Source: Naegleria gruberi (taxonomy: Eukaryota). From it: a stretch of DNA of 64,000 bases. Below the pieces are notes generated by a model that was given only the letters and a program-made list of their open reading frames with translations, had not been told where the DNA came from and searched no databases. Positions 4,093 through 43,805 of the stretch are shown here, one piece after another. A program made the position numbers and the translations under genes. The first letter of the stretch is position 1, and each line of letters starts with the position of its first letter. The stretch lies in the NCBI GenBank assembly GCA_000004985.1, contig GG738846.1, one strand, 5' to 3'.

Positions 4093-4297
4093 ATTTATTA
4101 ACACAGATAACAATCAAATGAATAGTGTATAAAGACAAGTTCAAATAGTTGTCCTTCTAATCTAGCAGTAGATAAGTTAACAATGGATTCATCAAAAAGC
4201 CTTTTTTGTCAAGTATCAGAGTTTCACTGATATCTTGTGGCGATCACTCAGCTTTCATAACATGAAAAAAACTGCAAACACAAATTATCACGAGAAT

Positions 4298-7188
4298 ATG
4301 AACACCCAAAAATTGTTCATTTTCCTTCTCGTATTCCTTTCAGTTGTTACACTTCAAGAAGTAACAGCATCCTTCATCAACTCGAAGAATATCTACACGT
4401 TCGGCTACATTTACTACTCTGGTTTTTCACCACTAGCCATCACACCTGATACTAGCACTCCAATTGAAAATGATCTACTACCCAAATATCTATTCAACGG
4501 CACCGAATCATGGAAATTAATAACAGGAAATGAAACAACCACCACTACTATGAACACTTCTGTTAAACTGCAACAAATAGTTACGGGCATGTCGGTGATG
4601 TTTTACGTGTTGGAATATTTCAATAGTGATACGAATAGTTCTCTTGGGCAAAGAATTCTCGTCTCTGGAAGTAATATGAATGGACAGGGAGCTGTTATCA
4701 AACCACCCTATATCATGTCTACTCCAGAATTAATTTACATCTATTCGAAAGATGGACAAGCTTTTAATCCCTTCTCTAATTCGAATAGGATTATTCACAT
4801 GGCTTGTTTGTATTCATGTTTGATCGTGTCCAGTGATGGTCATGTTCGTTACCATTATGGACTGTTGGAAGTTGGTACTGGAATTTGGAATGTTCGATTT
4901 AGTGCAGTTTCGTATAACGATCCAGATAATGGTCAATTGTTAACTGGTGTGAAATATGTACATGCTACAATTGGTGGATATTATGGTTGTGAAACAATGT
5001 TTGCAGTTACTAATTATGGTCATGTTTTTAGTAGTGGATGTCATAATTCTGGATTGAGAGGAACTTCCTCTTCCTATTCAGATACGAGTGTTAATTTAAT
5101 TCCATCATTGAGGAATATTACAACAGTTTCGGTTGGTTTCTTGGATGGAAATGGAGAGACTGGCAAGACAGCTGCTGGAGCTATTGATGTGAATGGAGTT
5201 TTGTGGACTTGGGGAAGTAATTTTAATGGAATGTTGGGTTGGAATTCGACACTAAATGTTAGTGAAACAGCTCAACCTGTCACCTTAATTCAAAACCCAG
5301 TAACACAAGTTTCATTTGGATTTTCACATGCCATTGTAATGACAAATAATGGAGATGTTTTGTGTTTTGGAGGAAATCTTTACCAGCAATGTGATTTCAA
5401 TCTTCTGATCCATCAATCATGGTCCCTAAAAAAATTGACAATGTTACAAATTCACTTTACTGCACTGCCAAGGAATACATTTCAATTTGCATTGTAATAG
5501 ATGGTACTGTTAAATCATGGGGAGTTTCTTTGAATTCGTATAAAAATCTGGGTCATGCTAGTAATCCAGTTTTTGACACGGTCAACTTGGGACAATCGAT
5601 AACTTCCTCAGTTTACTTGTCAGGAATTCATGGCATGGCAATCACTACAACAGAAAAGGTTAAAGTTTGGGGAAGTAATAATAATGGGATGTTAACACTT
5701 GGAGATGAATACATGATTAGATATCCTAGAAAATTAACAACTTTTGGACTTTCTTATTCGAATGTTTCGGTTGTGATTGCCAAATCAGGAAATGCTTGTT
5801 CATTCTTATTGACTGCTTTGGGGAATGATAGTTCTACCAATGTATTAGAATATTGGGGAGGTTGCAATAACGGTCTTGGATTTTCAGTAACTGCCAATAC
5901 TCCAACACAAGCACTCACATCATTGACATCTAAAAAAGTTATTGACCTAGATATGAAAGGAGAGTTTGCAGTAGCTCTTGTTGAGAATGGGGATGTCTAT
6001 GCTTGGGGAAAGGGAGATTATTACTCTTTTGGCTCTTCATCAAGTAGTAATCCAACTCCTACGTTAATCTATTCGAATGTTAAACTAATCACAGCTGCCT
6101 CTTCCAATACGTATCTATTATTACAGAATGGAACACTATTGGGTATTGGTGATAATACCTATGATGAATTAGGTGTCACTGGACCGACTAGTATTTCAAA
6201 TTTCATTGCATTGAATACTTCAATCATTGATTCGAATAATGAAGTCATTGTTGACATTAAGGGAGGTACACAAACACTCTTTGTCTTGACAGATAAGGGA
6301 AATGTGTACGGTATTGGTTTAAATACTGGAGGTAATAAGTATCTTTCCCCTAGTGCAACTTCCAAATATTCAACTTTTATTCGAATCAATGGAAATGTCA
6401 AAGTTAGAAAGATGTTTGTTGGATTTTACAGTGCTACTGTATTTGTTTCAACAAGTGGAGTACCCTACTATTTCGATGGAACACCAATCAAATTGAATCT
6501 TCCATCAGATGATTCGTATTTGGTTGACTCATTCATGTATTCAAAAAGACACTACTTTATTACCAAAAAAGGGAATGTTTACACATCTGGTTCCAATGAT
6601 TATTATCAGACTTCATACAGAAGTGGTTTTAATCCAGTTATTTCTGCTCCAACTCTCTACATGACAAAAGATTATTTTGATGGAGTACCATATATGGGAA
6701 TTGCTGGATCTTTGGTTGCCGGAATTATTACCAGAGAAGAATATACATGTTTTGGAGTGAATTCTACCGATTCAACTGTCTGCTCTTCTCGTGGTTATTG
6801 TTCTGGACCAGATTCTTGCACATGTGATGAAGGATATTATGGGTTGACCTGTGCCAATTTTTCCTGCAATTCAATTTCCTCATTCAATTCTTCAGTTTGC
6901 TCTGGAAGAGGAATTTGTTCTGGGCCTAATACTTGCTCTAATTGTACAAATTCTATTGGAAACAATTGTGAATATCCTATTTGTTATGGAACTTATTCGA
7001 ATAATGTTTCAGTTTGTAGTGGAAATGGATATTGCACATCAGTAGATACTTGTCAATGTAAATTTGGATTTTATGGAACTAAATGTGAATATAGAACGTG
7101 TTTTGGAGGTTCAGCATTGAATGGAGTTTTACCAAGACAGACAGTCGCCGATGTCTTTTGTAAAAACATTAACAAGCTATTGAAATAA
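4298..7188 (+). CDS. secreted RCC1-like beta-propeller repeat protein with C-terminal tenascin-type EGF repeats; reading frame disrupted near 5395-5420
   Basis: The likely start is the ATG at 4298, giving a signal-peptide-like N-terminus (MNTQKLFIFLLVFLSVVTLQEVTA). RCC1 blade motifs (G.V..WG.N..G.LG) recur in both track ORFs 4235-5497 and 5419-7188. The C-terminus carries CSGRGICSGPNTC / CSGNGYCTSVDTCQC repeats. The two ORFs overlap in different frames. A single-nt shift around 5395 gives continuous RCC1-like sequence (GGNLYQQCDF|QSSDPSIMVPKK...ICIVIDGTVKSWG). No GT-AG intron reconciles the frames. Confidence 0.7.
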
Positions 7189-9782: not shown

Positions 9783-9851
9783 CAAGGTAGCAGTACTCCA
9801 ACTAAATTAAATATTTCCATAATTGGAATATTGAAACTTTACAATAAACAC

Positions 9852-21511: not shown

Positions 21512-22997
21512 CTAAGAATCATATTTAACCTTCTTCTTTGGCTGAATATTTGCATCACTGCCACCATAAATTGCAGACGAGTCCTCTTCGTGATAACGTT
21601 TTAAAAGCTCTGAAATTTCACCACAATACTGGTTTGGAATGGGTAAAATGCATGGTTGAAAGAATTGAGCAATTTCTTTGAGTGATTCAATTTCTTCGTA
21701 TGGAGCAACACATGATCTAAAGAATAACTTTCCATTACCCACATCAAAATCTGGGCATTCAATTGAAGGAAGTGTATCTTCATCCACATTTAAAAATTCT
21801 TCATTAAATAGAATGTTGGTAATACTTTGTGATCTGGGATAGAGGGGTGGAGGAACATAATTTTTCTTATTAAAAGCATCAATATCATGTAATAATTGAT
21901 GGTCGTAATCTGACATTGTTGTAAAGAAGGATGATTCACAACTTTCACATTGATAAATATAGAATGGTTGATCTCGTATGTACAAGACACTTGAAAATGG
22001 TTCAAGTGCCAAATTAGTGTTAGATTGGGAAGCTCGTTTCTTTAGTACTACTGAGCTAGCATTGCTGGAGCTTTGATTATCAGTTTCAACATAATAATCC
22101 TCATTCCCTTCATATGGGCATGTAATGATGATATCTACAAAGGAATTACTGTACAATTGTTTTTGTTGATTCACCAAATTTGTTTTAAATCTCTATATAT
22201 CATGATTAGAATTATTTTCATGATGAGAAAAATTCACGTACCTTTTTGTTGTTCTTAATACGAATATAATTTGGATAGTCAAATTGACGAATATATTCTG
22301 ATATTTGAAGAAAACCTTGCTCCTTTGAAATTTCCTCTGGTGAAGTATTGTCAATAAAAGGAGAACATCTGACATTCTTATTGGCTCCCATTTTCAAAAG
22401 ACGTCTAACAACTCGGAATTTACCATTATACGAAGCAATCCAGAGTGCTGTTTGTTTGAGACTTCCACTGTTTGGTTCATCAATATTAGCTCCATTTCTA
22501 ACTAGAAACTTTACAATGTAATAATGCCCTTCATTGGCTGCATTATATAGAGCTGCTTCATCATATCTGTCTTTGGCATTGATATCCACTCCTTCTCGGA
22601 AAAGCTTTAAAGCTTGCACTAAATTTCCGTCAGAGCAAGCATTAACAAACTTTTTCACCTTCTTTTCCTTTACATCTGGATCCCAGTCGGGAAATTTAAT
22701 TCCACTCGTACTTATCTTCCTCTTCACATTATTGGCTGAGGATGAATTAACATTATTTACATTAAATCCACTACTAATCGATGATCTATTATTATTATTA
22801 TTATTACTATCATCATCGTCCTCCGTACTATCATCATGACTTGAATTTTCCACAATCTCCTGCACCATCATCATCCCTCCAACAACATTATTCATCATCA
22901 CGTTATTATTATTATTATTAGATAACAACCCCGCAGCAGTTGAAGTCATCACACAAGACAACAAGGCTGAGGAATCATCACGCGGAGGTGGTTGCAT
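21512..22997 (-). CDS. ankyrin-repeat protein, two exons: 22242-22997 and 21512-22192
   Basis: ATG at 22997 (MQPPPRDD...). Ankyrin repeats GNLVQALKLFREGVDINAKDRYDEAALYNAANEGHYYIVKFLVRNGANID...TALWIASYNGKFRVVRRLLKMGANKN. A GTACGT donor sits immediately after ...IKNNKK (22241-22236) with an ATATAG acceptor, giving a 49-nt phase-0 intron (22193-22241). This joins to track ORF 21512-22177, which has no ATG of its own (RFKTNLVNQQKQLYSNSF...). The junction is inference. Confidence 0.5.
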
Positions 22998-25135: not shown

Positions 25136-28100
25136 ATGCCATCATCAAATAGCCAAGCAAATGATGCCTTCTCGGAGAAGGAGTTTCAAGTTTTTTTAAC
25201 TTCAACAAGGGATTGTTATGTGCAATTACCTCACGAATACGTTCTCTCCAATGCAGTATTGAATGAAAGCAAGGGGAAAATTCAAGTATTTAAAATTATA
25301 AATCATGATGATGATGATTATTTGTGTTGGAGTTGGCATACTCATCAGCAAGCTCCGAACAAGATTGGAATACCATCAACATTGGCTAAATGTTTGGAAA
25401 TTAATGAAAATGATAATATTACTATTAAATTATTGAAGGACGTGAAAATGTGTAAGAGTGTTTTTGTTAGACCTGAAACAATAGATGATTCGGAAATTTT
25501 GGAATTCAATCAAAATAGTATTGAAGAGGAGTTACTTTCACAAGTTAGAATTGCATACAGGGATATGAAATTCCCACTTTTTATCAATAATAATATTAGT
25601 ATTACATTAAATACATATCAATGTGGCAACGATGATAAGGATACCAATGTGTATATAATTGATAGTGGAACTGAATTAATTGTTGAAACTAAACATGAAA
25701 TTATTGATGAAGTTAAACAAGAAAAGAAAAAGTATTACATTAAATCGAAATTAGAAAAATTATCCACAATTGCAAATAGATTGGATTTGAAATATACTCA
25801 CGAGCAAATAGATGATGATAAATTTATTTATGTTTCCAAAGATATTGCCACTAAAATTGGACTTGTTAGTGGTGATTTAGTTCAAGTATTACATTTGAAT
25901 ATCATTAGAAAGAATATTATCAAGGATGAAACTGAACAAGCTGAAGAACAAAAGAATCCTCTTGATGCTTTGAAAGAATTTGAAGAAAAGAAGGAAAGAG
26001 TATGTTTTAATTAATAATTTCTCAATAATTTGATTTCTCTATCAATAATTTCAAAATCGATCAATTCAACTTTTAATAGAGAATAATATATGGAAGAGTA
26101 CACGTATTGAATGAGAAAGCAACAAGTGGATTGTGTAGCATGCCAACCATTTTTGTTGGAAAGCACTTGATATGGATGCTTGGAGCTGTTGAGCATTCTA
26201 CAGTTTATTTAAAGTACATAGAAGAGCCATTATATCCTAACTTTGTTCACAGTATTTATGTGAGACCAATATTGGATATGTTACCAAAGGACATTGAAGT
26301 ATCGATGGATAATTATCAAGAATTAACCAAGATATTTAGAGAGTGGATTTTGGAACGCAAGACCAATTCTCTCTTAACTGTTCCATCTATTGCTATGGCT
26401 CAGAGAAATGTAATTTACTTGAAAGGTTTTGGAAATGTGCTCGTCAGTATTAATGAATCAATTATTATTTCCTCAAAGAAGGAAGATGAGGATGAATACC
26501 AAACCTTTAGCGAATTTTTGAATAAGTCATCCGTTGAGAATTTATATCTACTCTTTGGAAGTGAAGCCTCCTATAATATTTCAATTGTGGAAGATCCTAT
26601 TGCTGTGGAACATAGACATGCTGTTTATTCTCAAGTACCTGATTTGTGTGAAATTACTGAAATATCAGAACAAGTTCAATTAATTTTAAACAGATTACAA
26701 GTTCAATACTCTCCAGAGGCTGTACCTTTCAAGAAGGAATTCAAATATTCAACTCACTCCAACTCGAACATTATCATTTCAGGCAATGTTGGTAATGGTA
26801 AAACTTACTATGCAAAGGCCCTGGCTAGACACTGTAATGTTTACACTATCTTTGTTTCATGTGCATCATTGGCTGGAGATAGAGCTGATACTCTCGGTTT
26901 GAAATTCAAGAGCTATGCACAAGAGGCCATCATGAATGCCCCCTCTCTCATCATTTTTGATGACATTGATTCAATTTGTCCTTTTGAGCAAGAAGAAGCC
27001 ATGCCAGATATTAATGTTAGAGTTGCTGCTTCAACATTTACTGAATTGTTGAGCACTCTATCTTTTTTCAGTACTAGTTATGAAAGAAATGTCAATGTTA
27101 TTGTCACATGTAAATCTCTGGATGAAACGTACGATTCTATTCAAAATTCAAAACTTTTCGAGCAAAACTTTTTAATCAGTGTACCAAACAGAGAGCAACG
27201 AAGAAAGATCTTCCAAAGATTCCTCACTAATAGACCAGACTTTTTCTCAGAAGCAGATGAAGACGTCTTTGATTTTTCACAATATAGTATGACAGAAGAA
27301 ACTTTGGATTACATTGTTGATAGGACTGAAAATTACTCTCCTCTCGATGTGAGAAATATGTTGGACAAGATGGTCAATGTCAAGTTACAAACTCTAGTGG
27401 AAGAAGGAAAGTATGAATCATTAGGTATTGACACTATTTTGACCATTCAAGAATTTACAAAGGCATCCAAAGACTTTATAACTCAATCCACAGAGGGAAT
27501 CAAGTTGATAAAGAGTACAACTTCCTTCTCAGATATTGGAGGTCTTCAAGATGTTAAAAACATTCTGAGAGAAACCTTCATTTTCCCAACCAAATATGCC
27601 TCACTCTTTGAGAATGCTCCAATCAAGTTACGTTCTGGCCTTCTCCTTTATGGACCACCTGGAAGTGGTAAGACTTTTATTGCAAGTGCCATTGCTAAGG
27701 AATGTGGATTGAATTTCATTTCCATTAAGGGACCAGAACTTTTGAACAAGTATGTTGGTGCGAGTGAACAAGCTGTCAGAGATGTTTTCATGCAAGCTGA
27801 ATCTGCAAAGCCGTGTATTATTTTCTTTGATGAATTTGATTCAATTGCTGCTCAAAGAGGTCACGACAATACTGGTGTTACAGATAGAGTTGTCAATCAA
27901 TTTTTATGTCAATTGGATGGTGTCGAATCTAGAAAGGGAGTTTATGTTTTGGCTGCCACATCTAGACCTGACTTGATTGATGCTGCCTTGTTGAGACCAG
28001 GTAGATTGGACAAGTCAGTTTGTTGTAATATTCCAACAGAGGAGGAAAGGCAAGATATTATGGAAGTCATTTGTTCCAAGCAATCCAATGTTCAAATAGG

Positions 28101-38835: not shown

Positions 38836-39688
38836 TCAATTACATGTAAGTGAATAGTTGGGATTTTCAATCCAATCAAACAAGTGCTCATGTGGAAAGA
38901 TGGGATTTCCACAATTTGGATTTGAGAGTGTCTCGTTTGTGGTGAGTAACATTAAATCTAGAGATGGTGTATGTTTTGGGCTTCCCATTGCATTAAAGTG
39001 AAGCACCCTAACACAAGATGTGATGCAGTTTTGATGACCAGCATATTGCAAGTGTAGTCCACATTCCATTTCATGAATCCATGCTCTATTCGTTATTCTA
39101 TCGAGAGTATTGAGCACATCCTGATCAGCCAATAGTGTCTCTCCNNNNNNNNNNNNNNNNNNNNNNNNNNNNNNNNNNNNNNNNNNNNNNNNNNTACAGA
39201 TACTCCCAGGCATAGATTAGACCATCAAAACCATGAACCAAGAAGGTATCTGCATCCAAAAACAAGAAATGTGCCAATTTATGTTGAAAGAATTCAATCA
39301 GCTTTAACTTCTTGTTGGCAGAGGCAGCACTATAATGTGTCGATTTGGCGTCAACAGACAACTCGTTCGACTCATAGAATTTCAACGAAACTCTCTCACA
39401 AGAACCAAATCTCTTCACAATACAATCGATGGTATTGGTTGAATTCATGAAAACATGTAGAGTTACATGGTGGGGAGGCGAGGGACATGATGGAAGAGCT
39501 AACAATGGAGAGGCAACCTTTTCTGAGTTTTCATAGATTACCACAACATGCATGAGATGTCCAGCTCCAGCAGCACCAGGTTGTTTTGAAGAATATTTCT
39601 GGTGCGAGTAGAGAAAATGTCTTTCCAGGAGGAATGTTATGAGAGAGAAACAGAGAATTGGCAAAATGACTTTAAATTTATAATTCAT
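38836..39688 (-). CDS. DXD-motif glycosyltransferase (GT32 / alpha-1,4-glycosyltransferase-like), split by N-gap 39145-39194
   Basis: ATG at 39688 with a signal-anchor (MNYKFKVILPILCFSLITFLL). FLFLDADTFLVHG is a DXD nucleotide-sugar motif. The C-terminal part after the gap (GETLLADQDVLNTLDRI...NAMGSPKH) is consistent with the Gb3-synthase-like C-terminal region. Coordinates across the gap are uncertain. Confidence 0.55.
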
Positions 39689-39989
39689 TATCGTAGTTTT
39701 GAATGATTTTTTTATATATACAACAACAACAACACACTTTGAAACTTGCCAATTACTATTGGGGTTTCATTTGGAAACAGGTGTTGGTCTAACAATGTTT
39801 GACACGACTAATCTATGGCAAATATGAGTTTTTTTGTTTTGTCATAATGTTGGAAATGGGTGTTTCTTCACGCCCTTATCATTTGTCAGGTGCTGGAAAT
39901 AAACCAAACCAAGCAATTTGATAAACCAAATAAAAACAGTCTCAGTTGACAAGTGATACTTGTTTTTTAATTATTTTCGTAGAGCATTC

Positions 39990-40330
39990 CACACTACTTG
40001 ACTTTAAAGAACCTGGTGTAGTAGCGAGTGCTAAACACAAAGCTGTTGGAAATACATCATTTCGCTGTTGACTTCATACAAACAGCATCCAAAGTGTTAG
40101 TCTAACTTGTTTTTGGTAATTTTAAGGTACAAATCAGGAGATTTTTGAAAGCTTGTTGAACAAAGTGGACTATCATATAAACATCAATAGAAAACCATGG
40201 TGAATGAGTGTTTATTACTCTACTAACTCCATGTTGTGATTTTCTAGCCACATTAGGCCTAGGATTGATGGTGTACCATGATACAAATACTTGAAGTGTT
40301 TTTTTCCTCACATTTATTATGATTGGGAGA
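39990..40330 (+). pseudogene. degenerate partial copy of the 5' end of the receptor-kinase gene (inverted relative to the intact gene)
   Basis: Plus strand gagtgctaaacacaaagctgttggaaata... and ...catataaacatcaatagaaaaccatggtgaatgagtgtttattactctactaactccatgttgtgattttctagccacattaggcc align at about 75% to the kinase coding strand (43770-43450 region: gagtgctaaacacaaagcggttggaaataat...; catagaaacatcaattgaaaataatggtgattgtgaatatgtggctgtttctctgctaacttcatggccctgttgtgattttcttgccacaggagg). Stops occur in all frames. Confidence 0.55.
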
Positions 40331-40429: not shown

Positions 40430-43400
40430 TTATATATTGAATTTGGAAAGAATATTTGCTAAACGATCTGCAACCTCATCAAACGAAGGTCTCTCATCTG
40501 GATTTTGATCCCAACAATCTTTCATCAAGTCAATATACTGATCCACAACTGAAACTAAAATGTCAATATCCATATATTTCTTGTCATCTTTCATATACTC
40601 CTTAATCCATACCATACTGATCTCTCTTCAACAGTAGAGAATGGAATTTTAGGTCTGAATCCTTTGGAAACTTTGAGTGGAATACTGAAACTATTCACAT
40701 CTGTTATCTCAGACTTTGAAAATCTATTAATTTTTTCAGAACTTTGATTAATGTATGGATTCTCCTCAAAAAGTAACTCATACATTACAATGCCAAAACT
40801 GTAGACGTCCAACTTGTTAGAAATTGAAATATTACTGTCACCAATCAATTCCTTAATAAATTAATTATGAATAATGTTAGTACAAATACTTACAGGCTTT
40901 AAAGACAAGTTATTATACTATTGTTCAATTAATTAGTATTACTTACAGCCATATAAAGGATACTTCCTAAATTGGTAGTCATATTGGTTGAATTGGTATT
41001 TCCAATCAATTTAGACAATCCAAAATCACAAACCTTGGGTTGCATATTCTCATCTAATAAAATGTTAGCACTTTTTAAATCTCTATGAATAATCATTTTC
41101 GGTTTCAAGTTATGTAAATAACTCAAACCGTTAGAAACTCCAAATAAAATACGAATCTTATCAATTAGTTTGATCATTTTTCTTTTCAATCGAAGTTCAC
41201 TAATTAACTTATCCAATGAACCACCTCCAAGATATTCCATAACCATTAACTTTCTTCGATCTGTGATACAAACACCAAAGAATTGTATAACATTTGGATG
41301 TTTCAAACTGTTGAGTAAAAGAACTTCTCTTTCAAATGTATCTTCCTCCTGTTCTATCTCATCATCTTCATTGTAATCTACACTTTTAATAGCAACACTA
41401 ACTTGCTTCCATCTGGCTTTGTAAACCTGACCGAAACCACCTGAACCTATTTTCTCAACTAATTCTAATTCTTCTATTGGAATCAAATAGGATAATTGCT
41501 TTCCTCTTTCATCCTCTAATTCTAATTCAATATCGAGAAGCTTTTTTTCCATTTCCATTTCTGTCTTTTTTCTCTTATTCCAATACCTGTTTTTGTAAAT
41601 ATAGAGAGCTACACTAACCAGTAAGAAAAATACAAGACATGAAACCAACACTCCAACTGGAACTAGAATTTTGTAAAGCAGATTTTCATCCACATTACAA
41701 AGCTTTCCTGAAAACCCATCATGACAACTACAATTATTAGGACCAATACAATCACCATATCCAGAGCAAGATTCCACACCAATATTTCCAAAACAGATAG
41801 GAGTTTCACATTGCTTGCCAACATACATTGGTAAACTGTTATTGAATTGTTTGCAAACACAATTGTCCTTACTAACACAATTGCCATTTCCTCCACAAAC
41901 CAATTGATCTGTTGATAGGGTAGATATTGAATAACATGTAGGAATGGAGCAATCTGGACCAGCACTTCCTGTTAGACAACTACAAGTATCATAGCCAACA
42001 CAAAATCCAGAACGTTGGCACACTGTGAAATTATTCGAATCAATACCAAAACAACTAGTATGTTCACAATTATCTCCAAAATAGTTCTCTTGACAAACAC
42101 AATGGTCTGTTGAAACACATTTGCCTCTTCCAGAGCAAACTTGATTTGATTTTGATAACACCTCATAGCACATGAAGGAAGAGCAATCATTTCCAAAATA
42201 ACTAGTCTTGCATTTGCAGGTATTATAATCTACACAATTCCCCCAACCACTACAAACAAATGATTGATTGGTTGACGGGATGTTAAAACACGTTGTAATG
42301 TTACAATGAGGTCCAAAATAGCTGTTATCACACTGGCACTTGTCTATTCCAATACATTTACCGTGATTACATCCAGATTCTAATTTACCAAAACAAGTAA
42401 ATTGAGAACAATTTGTATTACCATAACCATAATTGCACACACAATAATCTGAAGATTGACAAATGCCATGTCCAGAGCAAACACTCGTGTCATTATAAGC
42501 AATTCCAAAACAAGATTTGTAATTTTTAGAGCTGTAAGACTGAATCAATAGATTTGAACGAGGAGAACTATATGCATTTCCTGTAAGGTCAATTAACCTT
42601 CCATAATAAACATATGAAACAGCAACGTATGAATTGGTTGCAGATATAAAAACTGAGTTCACATTCGTACCATTCACACGCAAAATCCATTCTGCATCCC
42701 TTAAATTGTTATCCAATGATTGAACTATAATTTCATTGTTTCTACAAGAATCAAACCTTGCTGCAATAAAAACAAGTGACTCGGTACCTGTCACTGAATA
42801 AATTGTAGATTTACAAGAACTCAACTGATTTGAAAGCATTACATTTTTTGTTTCAAGTTTTGGTAAACTCAATTCCACACATTCTAAAATAGTATTTGAA
42901 CCACACAGAATAACAGATGCTGTTCTTCTAACTATATATGTGTTCACTGTTGTAGAAAGATAAGATAGAATAGTACCATTTTGATAAAGTAGCATGACAT
43001 AATTTCCATTTAAACCATTTTTCTCAATTTTGACCAAGTTATTATCTGAATCTCTCCATGTGGTTGATTCACCTTGTGTGAAAAATCCAGTTAACACTAA
43101 CAAATCCATTCCACTAACTGATACTGGGTATATTCCAGTTACTAGTCTTGGATTTTTTCCCATGTCTTCAGTTGCAAAAGTTGTATCAATACTTTGAACA
43201 ACCCATTGTCTACTCCAATCTTTCAACCTTAACATTAAAGCGAAGGTATTGTAAACTTTTCCAGCTGAATCTTCATCACGAAAAACTTCAACTCCAAAAC
43301 TATTCGAATCACCAACATATCCAGTTACAAACAAGGAAGATCTATCGAATGCCAAACTCAAAATATTACCATAATAAACAACCATTTGTTGAGCCCACAG

Positions 43401-43805
43401 TCTTTCACCACTCGTGGCATTGTAAATCATCAATCCTGGACCTCCTGTGGCAAGAAAATCACAACAGGGCCATGAAGTTAGCAGAGAAACAGCCACATAT
43501 TCACAATCACCATTATTTTCAATTGATGTTTCTATGGCAGTCAATGTCGTTCCACAAGCTTCCAAAATCTCTGATTTGTACCATAAAATTTCATTGGTGG
43601 TCAAATCCATCTTTACCAAAAACATGTTACACTGATCATTCTTATACTTTGGATGCTTGATAATAATAGTTGGCGAAATACCAATGGAATTTCTAAAAAC
43701 ACCTCCAAAGAATATATTATTTCCAACCGCTTTGTGTTTAGCACTCTCTATTGCTCCAGTTTCGTTCAAGGTGGTGAAAGGAAAGAGCAAAATGAACCAA
43801 ACCAT
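40430..43805 (-). CDS. receptor-like transmembrane protein kinase (TKL-like); four exons: 40947-43805, 40894-40896 (3-nt), 40618-40851, 40430-40537
   Basis: ATG at 43805 with a signal peptide. The ectodomain is about 480 aa, beta-propeller-like. It is followed by about 8 tenascin-type EGF repeats (CSGHGICQSSDYCVCNYGYGNTNC...), one TM helix (LYKILVPVGVLVSCLVFFLLVSVALYIY), and a kinase domain: GSGGFGQVYKA, AIK, HRDLKSANILL, DFGLSK, YMA|P|ELIGDS, DVYSFGIVMYELL, CWDQNPDERPSF. Kinase subdomains VIII-XI fall in three track ORFs joined by GTAAGT introns (50 nt and 42 nt, both with TACTAA(C/T) branch sites) and an 80-nt GTATGG...GATCAG intron (40538-40617). Confidence 0.85.

What the first reader, a model, noticed from the sequence alone, without database searches (positions are those of the whole stretch)
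40852..40946. Putative 3-nt micro-exon (CCT = Pro) restoring the APE motif in the receptor kinase
The main kinase ORF ends ...GSILYMA at a GTAAGT donor. The next coding block begins ELIGDSN... 95 nt downstream. Between them, the triplet CCT (40894-40896) is preceded by ...tctttaaag and followed by a second GTAAGT. The downstream intron (42 nt) contains TACTAAC, and the upstream one (50 nt) contains TACTAAT. Including CCT yields Y-M-A-P-E, the invariant subdomain VIII motif. Skipping it yields YMAELIG. A 3-nt exon flanked by two consensus introns is rare. If real, it sits in the activation segment and is a natural regulatory splice point.
Basis: partly seen in the sequence, partly recalled or inferred. 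Interest (0 to 1): 0.55.

Follow-up and report, generated by a model that had tools for sequence, protein, structure and literature searches.

The report
One-codon exon in Naegleria kinase
A three-base exon between two tiny introns supplies the proline of an essential catalytic motif in a Naegleria gruberi receptor kinase; it is conserved in related genomes and missed by their annotations, but it belongs to a known class of ultra-short exons and has no transcript proof yet.

Summary
On the minus strand, a 953-codon exon ends ...YMA at a GTAAGT donor. A 50-nt intron, the triplet CCT (40896-40894) and a 42-nt intron follow, and coding resumes at ELIGDSN. The window is Naegleria gruberi NEG-M. 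The gene encodes an EGF-repeat, single-pass, TKL-type receptor kinase, and these are the only two introns found in it.

The decisive evidence is comparative. Four other copies carry the same ATGGCT|GTAAGT...AG|CCT|GTAAGT...AG|GAA layout: an environmental N. gruberi-like contig and three N. lovaniensis paralogs. Their intron lengths differ (50-90 and 42-57 nt), and between species their interiors are no more alike than shuffled sequence. Chance would put such a site in a 95-nt interval about 5 times per million. Including CCT restores APE and adds about 12 bits to the Pfam kinase score.

All three N. lovaniensis gene models get this spot wrong. Two swallow CCT in one long intron, and one translates intron 2.

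No transcript evidence could be found, so inclusion is inferred at about 0.8. The regulatory-switch idea is untested, and the TACTAAY motifs are not conserved. The NEG-M copy also carries a 5-nt tandem duplication that shifts the frame downstream. This is a new member of a known kind, of moderate interest.

The parts
40947..43805 (-). Exon 1 (953 codons as read from the first ATG of the ORF). It holds an N-terminal domain, teneurin-type EGF repeats, a transmembrane helix and kinase subdomains I-VIII up to ...GSILYMA. The true 5' end and any signal-peptide exon were not determined.
   Evidence: ORF list. Pfam matches EGF_TEN, EGF_2 and Pkinase positions 2-165 of 263. 59% and 55% full-length identity to N. 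lovaniensis C9374_001521 and C9374_000282.
40897..40946 (-). Intron 1, 50 nt, phase 0, GTAAGT...AG. Contains TACTAAT at 40938-40932.
   Evidence: Sequence. Read-through stops after 5 codons. Orthologous introns are 58, 54, 54 and 90 nt with unrelated interiors. The close relative L004 has 3-nt and 5-nt insertions here, a net 8 nt that is not a multiple of 3.
40894..40896 (-). 3-nt micro-exon CCT, encoding the Pro of the APE motif (kinase subdomain VIII).
   Evidence: AG|CCT|GTAAGT is invariant in 5 of 5 gene copies. Pkinase score is 203.5 bits with Pro and 191.1 without. Pro aligns with the Pro of MAPE in CTR1 structure 3ppz. No homolog in the alignment lacks a residue at this position.
40852..40893 (-). 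Intron 2, 42 nt, phase 0, GTAAGT...AG. Contains TACTAAC at 40882-40876.
   Evidence: Sequence; read-through reaches TAA. Orthologous introns are 42, 55, 57 and 42 nt. The 55 versus 57 nt difference between more than 90%-identical tandem paralogs shows the stretch is non-coding. A40877 is G in L004.
40430..40851 (-). Last exon (ELIGDSN...SKFNI, stop TAA at 40432-40430). It holds kinase subdomains VIII-XI and is interrupted in this assembly by a frameshift.
   Evidence: tblastn segments. Alignment to N. lovaniensis orthologs is collinear through ...EE..WI.EYMK....
40608..40617 (-). Tandem duplication GTATG|GTATG. The extra 5 nt shift the frame (SVW|IKEY) and lead to a premature stop at 40593-40591. 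It is absent from the close relative and from all orthologs.
   Evidence: Overlapping tblastn segments both ending or starting at VW. L004 has a single GTATG and an intact 137-aa ORF, P0136.

Best explanation
The window is Naegleria gruberi NEG-M. The gene encodes a single-pass receptor kinase with an EGF-repeat ectodomain and a TKL-type kinase. Its only two detected introns, of 50 and 42 nt, both phase 0 and both with perfect GTAAGT donors, bracket a 3-nt exon, CCT. Both introns are removed, so the mRNA reads ...TAT ATG GCT CCT GAA TTG... and the protein carries the canonical activation-segment end Y-M-A-P-E.

Shown: the sequence layout, its conservation, and the better fit to the kinase domain.

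Inferred: the introns are recognised one at a time by intron definition. The 3' splice site of intron 1 and the 5' splice site of intron 2 are only 3 nt apart, so they are most likely removed one after the other rather than together. The invariant, fully U1-complementary GTAAGT at both donors would compensate for the near absence of exonic context. Gene finders cannot model a 3-nt exon, which explains why the reference annotations of relatives omit or distort it.
For: 1. The layout is exact.
2. The organism is identified by exact matches of five window ORFs to N. gruberi proteins on one 1.0-Mb contig.
3. The same ATGGCT|GTAAGT..AG|CCT|GTAAGT..AG|GAA layout is found in four other copies:
   - L004, an environmental N. 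gruberi-like contig;
   - N. lovaniensis C9374_001521 (L002);
   - N. lovaniensis C9374_001518 (L006);
   - N. lovaniensis C9374_000282 (L003).
   Intron lengths are 50/58/54/54/90 and 42/42/55/57/42 nt.
4. Between species, the intron interiors are no more alike than shuffles, yet the 11-mer AGCCTGTAAGT is invariant.
5. Chance occurrence is about 5e-6 per interval.
6. Against the near-identical L004, the introns carry 3 substitutions and 2 indels in 92 nt, while coding sequence carries 13 substitutions in about 1,080 nt. The micro-exon and all four splice sites are untouched.
7. Adding Pro raises Pkinase by 12.4 bits and PK_Tyr_Ser-Thr by 10.6 bits.
8. In the alignment of nine homologs, every sequence has one residue between the A-position and the E, most often Pro. 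Pro aligns to MAPE of CTR1.
9. All other catalytic motifs are intact: GSGGFG, VAIK, HRDLK, DFG and the subdomain XI Arg.
10. Retaining either intron gives a stop in N. gruberi.
11. Other likely introns in the window are 49-80 nt with GTAAGT, GTATGT or GTACGT donors. The N. lovaniensis median intron is 80 bp (PMC6125883). So 42-58 nt is short but within range.
Against: - No transcript evidence was found. Three protein searches, an exhaustive representative search, a spliced-junction DNA scan of metagenome contigs and exact look-ups found no cDNA-derived sequence of this gene in either isoform.
- The published N. lovaniensis models were built with BRAKER1 and RNA-seq hints and do not contain the micro-exon. 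Two read YMA-ELIG or YMA-EVIG. This is expected from software that cannot place 3-nt exons, but it is not evidence for inclusion.
- A 3-nt exon leaves almost no room for simultaneous splice-site occupancy, so efficient inclusion is not guaranteed.
- The NEG-M copy has a frameshifting 5-nt duplication, so this particular allele may not make a functional kinase whatever the splicing.
- N. fowleri and more distant heterolobosean orthologs could not be examined.
Confidence: 0.8

Rival explanations
1. There is one 95-nt intron. The spliceosome always joins the donor at 40946 to the acceptor at 40852, CCT is never in the mRNA, and the kinase reads YMA-ELIG, as in the published N. lovaniensis models.
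For: Two N. lovaniensis reference models are built this way, with single introns of 112 and 135 nt. Their annotation used RNA-seq hints. An outer GT...AG pair is available.
Against: It leaves the invariant internal AGCCTGTAAGT unexplained in five copies whose surrounding intron sequence is saturated with change and whose chance occurrence is about 5e-6. It deletes a residue that every aligned homolog has and costs about 12 bits of domain score. The tandem paralog C9374_001518 was modelled differently, with intron 1 spliced at AG|CCT, so the models reflect software limits rather than data.
Confidence: 0.05
2. CCT is a regulated cassette micro-exon. Both the +Pro (APE) and -Pro (A-E) mRNAs are made in meaningful amounts, and skipping switches or tunes kinase activity.
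For: Skipping keeps the reading frame. 3-nt exons that are alternatively spliced are known in animals: MAP4K5 (PMC8632122), and homothorax and cytohesin-1 (titles). Plant micro-exons also show partial inclusion (PMC8831610). The tight spacing could make inclusion sensitive to splicing kinetics.
Against: Nothing in the sequence points to regulation. No conserved intronic element exists beyond the splice sites themselves. Both donors are the strongest possible, which favours constitutive use. No isoform data exist.
Confidence: 0.12
3. The micro-exon is genuine in the lineage, but the NEG-M copy in this window is a dead or dying allele. The 5-nt duplication at 40608-40617 is real and truncates the C-lobe before subdomains IX-XI. 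This does not exclude the best explanation.
For: The duplication is absent from the roughly 99%-identical L004 and from all N. lovaniensis copies. No N. gruberi protein model for this gene was retrieved in any search. A clean tandem 5-mer looks more like a replication-slippage mutation than a base-calling error.
Against: The rest of the 1,092-codon reading frame is intact and well conserved. The assembly is a draft with gaps and shows at least one other frame break in a neighbouring gene. It may therefore be an assembly or consensus error, or one allele of a heterozygous site.
Confidence: 0.35
4. Intron 2 is not an intron but coding sequence, as in the N. lovaniensis C9374_001518 model (YMAP-VSSLIIFLSFSLSINYLIK-ELIG).
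For: That one model exists. There the stretch is 57 nt and free of stops.
Against: In N. gruberi the stretch is 42 nt and contains TAA in frame. In the more than 90%-identical tandem paralog it is 55 nt and would shift the frame. Its sequence is not conserved between species. It would insert 19 residues into the APE motif.
Confidence: 0.01

Closest known systems
Ultra-short (1-15 nt) conserved coding micro-exons of land plants (Yu et al. 2022, PMC8831610)
   Same: These are tiny internal exons flanked by canonical introns. Their position and phase are conserved across species while the flanking introns vary. Their donors are strong GTRAGT. They encode parts of conserved domains and are pervasively missing from reference annotations. 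Sequential splicing of the two flanking introns has been proposed for them.
   Different: The organism here is a heterolobosean protist with an intron-poor genome. The flanking introns are extremely short (42-58 nt, with one of 90 nt). The two introns are the only ones detected in the gene. No RNA-seq validation exists here.
Animal 3-nt micro-exons: MAP4K5 codon 569 (PMC8632122), Drosophila homothorax micro-Ex8 (PMC7392893), cytohesin-1 and RPS24
   Same: These are exactly one-codon exons that add one residue. They are conserved across species and hard to map and annotate.
   Different: They are alternatively spliced, sit in long introns and lie outside catalytic motifs. In vertebrates many such exons depend on SRRM3/4-type regulators. 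The Naegleria exon encodes a core catalytic-domain residue and looks constitutive.
Recursive splice sites / zero-length exons (juxtaposed AG|GTAAGT)
   Same: A 3' splice site is followed almost immediately by a strong GTAAGT donor, which implies stepwise intron removal.
   Different: Here 3 nt lie between AG and GT and would remain in the mRNA. Removing intron 1 does not regenerate a donor at the junction, so the triplet cannot be spliced out afterwards by that route.
Stwintrons (spliceosomal twin introns of fungi)
   Same: Two short introns lie in immediate proximity and need ordered excision.
   Different: In a stwintron the inner intron interrupts a splice signal of the outer one and nothing is left between them. 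Here both introns have complete signals of their own and leave a codon behind.
TKL-group protein kinases (CTR1, MLK, RAF, TAK1)
   Same: They are the best solved-structure matches. All catalytic motifs align, including MAPE once CCT is included.
   Different: The receptor architecture, with teneurin-type EGF repeats and a Naegleria-specific N-terminal domain, differs from theirs.

Membership tests
Coding micro-exon (3 nt) flanked by spliceosomal introns | Canonical GT...AG boundaries on both flanking introns | tested here: met
   GTAAGT...AG occurs twice in the window and in all four other copies.
Coding micro-exon (3 nt) flanked by spliceosomal introns | Inclusion keeps the frame and restores conserved protein sequence | tested here: met
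   The phase is 0/0. YMA+P+ELIG gives APE. Pkinase gains 12.4 bits. The Pro aligns to MAPE of CTR1 and fills a column occupied in all homologs.
Coding micro-exon (3 nt) flanked by spliceosomal introns | Position, size and splice sites conserved in orthologs while intron sequence diverges | tested here: met
   Five of five copies from at least two species keep the layout. Intron lengths are 50-90 and 42-57 nt. Between species, interior identity equals that of shuffles.
Coding micro-exon (3 nt) flanked by spliceosomal introns | Transcript reads or cDNA containing both junctions | not testable with these tools
   No cDNA-derived sequence of this gene or its orthologs was retrievable.
Alternatively spliced (regulated) cassette micro-exon | Both inclusion and skipping isoforms observed, with conserved regulatory intronic elements | not testable with these tools
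   No isoform data exist. No conserved intronic block beyond the splice sites was seen.
Recursive splice site (zero-length exon) | AG immediately followed by GT, so that the donor is regenerated after the first step and nothing remains | tested here: not met
   Three nucleotides (CCT) separate AG and GT in every copy.
Stwintron | Inner intron interrupts the donor, branch site or acceptor of an outer intron | tested here: not met
   Each intron has its own complete GTAAGT and AG. Removing either does not create a new splice signal.
Eukaryotic protein kinase, TKL group, catalytically competent | Gly-rich loop, VAIK Lys, HRD, DFG, APE and subdomain XI Arg | tested here: met
   GSGGFG, VAIK, HRDLK, DFG and ERP are present. 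APE is present only if CCT is included. Best PDB matches are CTR1, TNNI3K, MLK and TAK1. In this assembly the C-lobe is out of frame after 40613.

The most novel reading that the evidence does not exclude
The one-codon exon is a switch. Naegleria makes both APE and A-E forms of this receptor kinase family, for example at different life stages, turning catalytic competence on or off by including or skipping a single proline codon.

More broadly, one-to-few-nucleotide exons may be a systematic, unannotated feature of heterolobosean genomes, which current gene models silently delete.
Probability: 0.12. Interest if true: 0.65.

Novelty: new member of a known kind. Interest (0 to 1): 0.45.

Why it matters
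- It corrects gene models. The three N. lovaniensis reference proteins (XP_044551181, XP_044551178, XP_044552835) are each wrong at the APE motif, in two different ways. No N. gruberi model for the gene was retrieved.
- If the exon is included, the spliceosome of an intron-poor, deep-branching protist can define a 3-nt exon between two introns of about 45 nt. That would take one-codon exons well beyond the animal and plant cases found in the literature searches here, and no paper found links Naegleria to micro-exons.
- It would give a compact natural substrate of about 100 nt for studying ordered splicing under intron definition.
- It is a concrete warning that ab initio pipelines remove single conserved residues without any flag. 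A motif-aware check, here on APE, catches the error.

Tried and rejected
**Transcript evidence (none found).**
- Kinase-domain, full-length and 134-aa junction-centred protein searches found no cDNA-derived sequence.
- That tool appears to return only proteins 0.75-1.75 times the query length. Products of 548-818 aa were therefore never sampled.
- An exhaustive HMMER search with the 80-aa downstream exon found only genomic ORFs.
- A DNA scan of metagenome contigs for either spliced junction, TTTATATGGCT-N(0-3)-GAATTGATTGG, gave 0 hits.
- A search for related loci in metagenome contigs gave 0 confirmed hits.
- Exact look-ups of the two downstream ORFs of the window gave nothing.
- The N. gruberi genome is not in the contig look-up tool: a known N. 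gruberi protein was not on record, nor was an ORF from this window.

**Other checks.**
- A strict GTRAGT...ACTAAY...AG intron pattern found only these two introns in the window. TACTAAY is therefore not the general Naegleria branch signal. It is also not conserved at this locus.
- Intron 2 as a duplicate of intron 1: interior identity equals that of shuffles, so this was rejected.
- Other kinases in the window as internal controls: there are none.
- More distant paralogs have a contiguous APE codon block, so the intron pair is specific to the EGF-ectodomain orthogroup. These are P0001, called as an uninterrupted ORF on a metagenome contig, and P0137 with YMSPE in L005.
- Literature search for Naegleria plus microexon found nothing relevant.
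Full report
**1. What is in the sequence**

The gene lies on the minus strand. The features, read, are:
- A 2,859-nt open frame (43805-40947) ends ...GGA AGT ATC CTT TAT ATG GCT (GSILYMA).
- It is followed by GTAAGT. Reading on gives VSNTN and a stop.
- Intron 1 spans 40946-40897 (50 nt) and ends ...tctttaaAG.
- The triplet CCT occupies 40896-40894.
- Intron 2 spans 40893-40852 (42 nt), starts with a second GTAAGT and ends ...ttattaAG.
- Coding resumes at 40851 with GAA TTG ATT GGT GAC (ELIGD...).
- TACTAAT sits at 40938-40932 and TACTAAC at 40882-40876.

Every coordinate and length in the finding is correct.

**2. Is it more than chance?**

AG-NNN-GTAAGT occurs exactly once on both strands of the 64-kb window, and that occurrence is here. 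Only 11 of 2,000,000 shuffles of the interior of the 95-nt interval produced AGCCNGTRAGT. Composition models give 5e-6 to 3e-5. GTAAGT itself is not enriched in the window (23 copies on both strands), so the pairing is not a by-product of a common word.

**3. Organism and gene**

Five intronless ORFs of the window are identical to Naegleria gruberi proteins (XP_002682625, XP_002682838, XP_002682633, XP_002682846, XP_002682630). All five lie on one 1,001,995-bp contig.

The protein has four parts:
- an N-terminal domain of about 430 residues;
- teneurin-type EGF repeats;
- one transmembrane helix;
- a protein kinase domain. Its best solved relatives are the TKL kinases CTR1, TNNI3K, MLK and TAK1.

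GSGGFG, VAIK, HRDLK, DFG and the subdomain XI Arg are all present. Only the Pro of APE is missing from the contiguous frames.

With Pro inserted, Pfam Pkinase scores 203.5 bits against 191.1 without, and PK_Tyr_Ser-Thr scores 188.3 against 177.7. In the CTR1 alignment...lyMAPEligd pairs with ...ewMAPEvlrd. In an alignment of nine heterolobosean-type homologs, none has a gap at this column.

**4. Comparative evidence (the decisive part)**

A full-length search found two N. lovaniensis co-orthologs, C9374_001521 (59% identity) and C9374_000282 (55%). A cluster look-up added a third, the tandem paralog C9374_001518. An exhaustive search with the downstream exon found a 96%-identical ORF on an ENA metagenome contig, L004, from an N. 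gruberi-like organism.

All four DNAs show the same architecture: TATATGGCT|GTAAGT...AG|CCT|GTAAGT...AG|GAA(T/G)TGATTGG.

| Copy | Intron 1 (nt) | Intron 2 (nt) |
|---|---|---|
| N. gruberi window | 50 | 42 |
| L004 (environmental, N. gruberi-like) | 58 | 42 |
| N. lovaniensis C9374_001521 (L002) | 54 | 55 |
| N. lovaniensis C9374_001518 (L006) | 54 | 57 |
| N. lovaniensis C9374_000282 (L003) | 90 | 42 |

Between the species, the intron interiors align no better than shuffled sequence. Even so, the 11-mer AGCCTGTAAGT is an invariant island.

Against the near-identical L004, the two introns carry two indels (3 and 5 nt) and three substitutions in 92 nt. About 1,080 nt of coding sequence carry 13 substitutions. 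The micro-exon and all four splice sites are unchanged.

The 55 versus 57 nt difference in intron 2 between the tandem N. lovaniensis paralogs, and the net 8-nt difference in intron 1 between window and L004, are not multiples of three. Both stretches therefore behave as non-coding sequence.

**5. What the annotations did**

The N. lovaniensis genome was annotated with BRAKER1 (GeneMark-ET plus AUGUSTUS with RNA-seq hints; PMC6125883).
- Two models read YMA-ELIG or YMA-EVIG. Gene length minus CDS length is 112 and 135 nt, which equals intron 1 + 3 + intron 2. A single intron therefore swallows CCT.
- The third model splices intron 1 at AG|CCT and then translates the 57-nt, stop-free intron 2 as 19 residues: YMAP-VSSLIIFLSFSLSINYLIK-ELIG.

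Tandem paralogs more than 90% identical get contradictory models, and neither type is plausible for a kinase. This is what one expects from software that cannot place a 3-nt exon.

For N. gruberi itself, no protein model of this gene was retrieved. There is a caveat: the search tool seems to return only proteins 0.75-1.75 times the query length, so models of 548-818 aa were not sampled.

**6. Mechanism**

*Shown.* Two complete short introns with perfect donors bracket one conserved codon. Retaining either intron gives a stop in N. gruberi. Skipping the triplet keeps the frame but removes the APE proline.

*Inferred.*
- With introns of about 45 nt, recognition is by intron definition.
- The acceptor of intron 1 and the donor of intron 2 are only 3 nt apart, so simultaneous occupancy is unlikely. 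The introns are probably removed one after the other, as has been argued for plant micro-exons (PMC8831610).
- Once intron 1 is removed, the junction GCT-CCT contains no GT. The triplet then cannot be lost by re-splicing. This distinguishes the site from a recursive splice site.
- All ten donors in the five copies are GTAAGT, although other likely introns in the window use GTACGT and GTATGT as well. This fits selection for maximal U1 pairing where exonic context is almost absent (both donors follow ...CT).

*Branch points.* The TACTAAY motifs are real in the window but are not part of the conserved design. In L004, TACTAAC has become TACTAGC, a change at the position that is the branch adenosine in the yeast TACTAAC box (established knowledge). 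The N. lovaniensis introns lack the motif. Branch points therefore remain unassigned.

**7. An extra defect in this copy**

At 40617-40608 the sequence GTATG is present twice in tandem. The two tblastn segments overlap on 'VW' in different frames, and the first frame ends at a stop at 40593-40591.

L004 and all N. lovaniensis copies have one GTATG and read ...EERSVWIKEYMK... or ...EEQ.LWIQEYMK... straight through.

Whether this is a true mutation (a pseudogene or one allele) or a consensus error in a draft assembly cannot be decided here. The assembly has gaps, and another frame break is visible at 5419-5497. The defect does not bear on whether the micro-exon architecture is real, but it does bear on whether this allele makes an active kinase.

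**8. What could not be done**

No transcript evidence could be reached. No cDNA-derived protein, no spliced-junction DNA and no exact-match contig was found for this gene or its orthologs. Inclusion of CCT in mRNA is therefore an inference from conservation and protein fit. I put it at about 0.8 for predominantly constitutive inclusion, about 0.12 for a meaningful mixture of isoforms, and about 0.05 for constant skipping.

**9. Comparison with what is known**

- One-codon exons are documented in animals, for example MAP4K5 (PMC8632122), homothorax, cytohesin-1 and RPS24.
- Conserved exons of 1-15 nt that are missed by annotation are documented at scale in plants, including the conserved GTRAGT donors (PMC8831610).
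- The Naegleria case shares the defining genomic features of that class. It fails the definitions of a recursive splice site and of a stwintron.
- Its particulars are new:
  - the organism is a heterolobosean;
  - the flanking introns are at the short end of the range;
  - the intron pair is the only interruption found in a 3.3-kb coding sequence;
  - the exon encodes a core catalytic-domain residue;
  - more distant paralogs have the APE codons contiguous, so the intron pair arose within this orthogroup.
- I found no paper linking Naegleria and micro-exons.

**10. Verdict**

This is a new member of a known kind. Interest is moderate (0.45). It is a clean, conserved and testable example that exposes annotation errors and offers a minimal natural substrate for micro-exon splicing. 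It introduces no new mechanism and still lacks RNA proof.

Noticed in passing
window 40608-40617 (minus strand): A tandem 5-nt duplication, GTATG|GTATG, shifts the frame of the kinase C-lobe and gives a premature stop at 40593-40591. A roughly 99%-identical environmental contig (L004) and all N. lovaniensis orthologs have a single copy and an intact frame. It is either a real mutation or allele, or an assembly error.
   Followed up: partly
L002 5881-5992, L006 4363-4476, L003 6328-6462: Three N. lovaniensis reference gene models (C9374_001521, C9374_001518, C9374_000282) treat the same conserved structure in contradictory ways. Two use a single 112- or 135-nt intron. One translates intron 2 as 19 residues inside the APE motif.
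   Followed up: yes
window 39964-40288 (+ strand): A short fragment resembles residues 3-41 and 81-132 of the receptor kinase's N-terminal domain (43-60% identity). It is convergent with the kinase gene's 3' end. It looks like a relic or truncated paralog next to an assembly gap (Ns at 39145-39194).
   Followed up: no
window 5419-5497 (+ strand): Two long ORFs of one RCC1-repeat plus EGF-repeat protein (4235-5497 and 5419-7188) overlap in different frames, with no obvious GT...AG intron. This is another apparent frameshift in the same draft assembly. Its EGF repeats are 33-49% identical to those of the kinase ectodomain.
   Followed up: no
window 40877 versus L004 737: The sixth base of the TACTAAC box in intron 2, the branch adenosine in the yeast consensus, is G in the close relative. 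TACTAAY is not enriched in the window. Naegleria branch sites therefore appear not to follow the yeast-like consensus.
   Followed up: partly
window about 22193-22241 (-), 9786-9851 region (-), 26015-26106 region (+): Junctions between adjacent same-strand ORFs show likely short introns of 49, 54 and 80 nt with GTACGT, GTAAGT and GTATGT donors. They serve as local context for intron size. The 49-nt one joins the two ORFs in frame.
   Followed up: partly
L004 (ENA ERZ929261, PRJEB11402 metagenome contig, 3,549 bp): An environmental metagenome contains a contig about 99% identical to this N. gruberi locus. This shows that N. gruberi-like amoebae are represented in public metagenome assemblies and can serve as population-level comparators.
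   Followed up: partly
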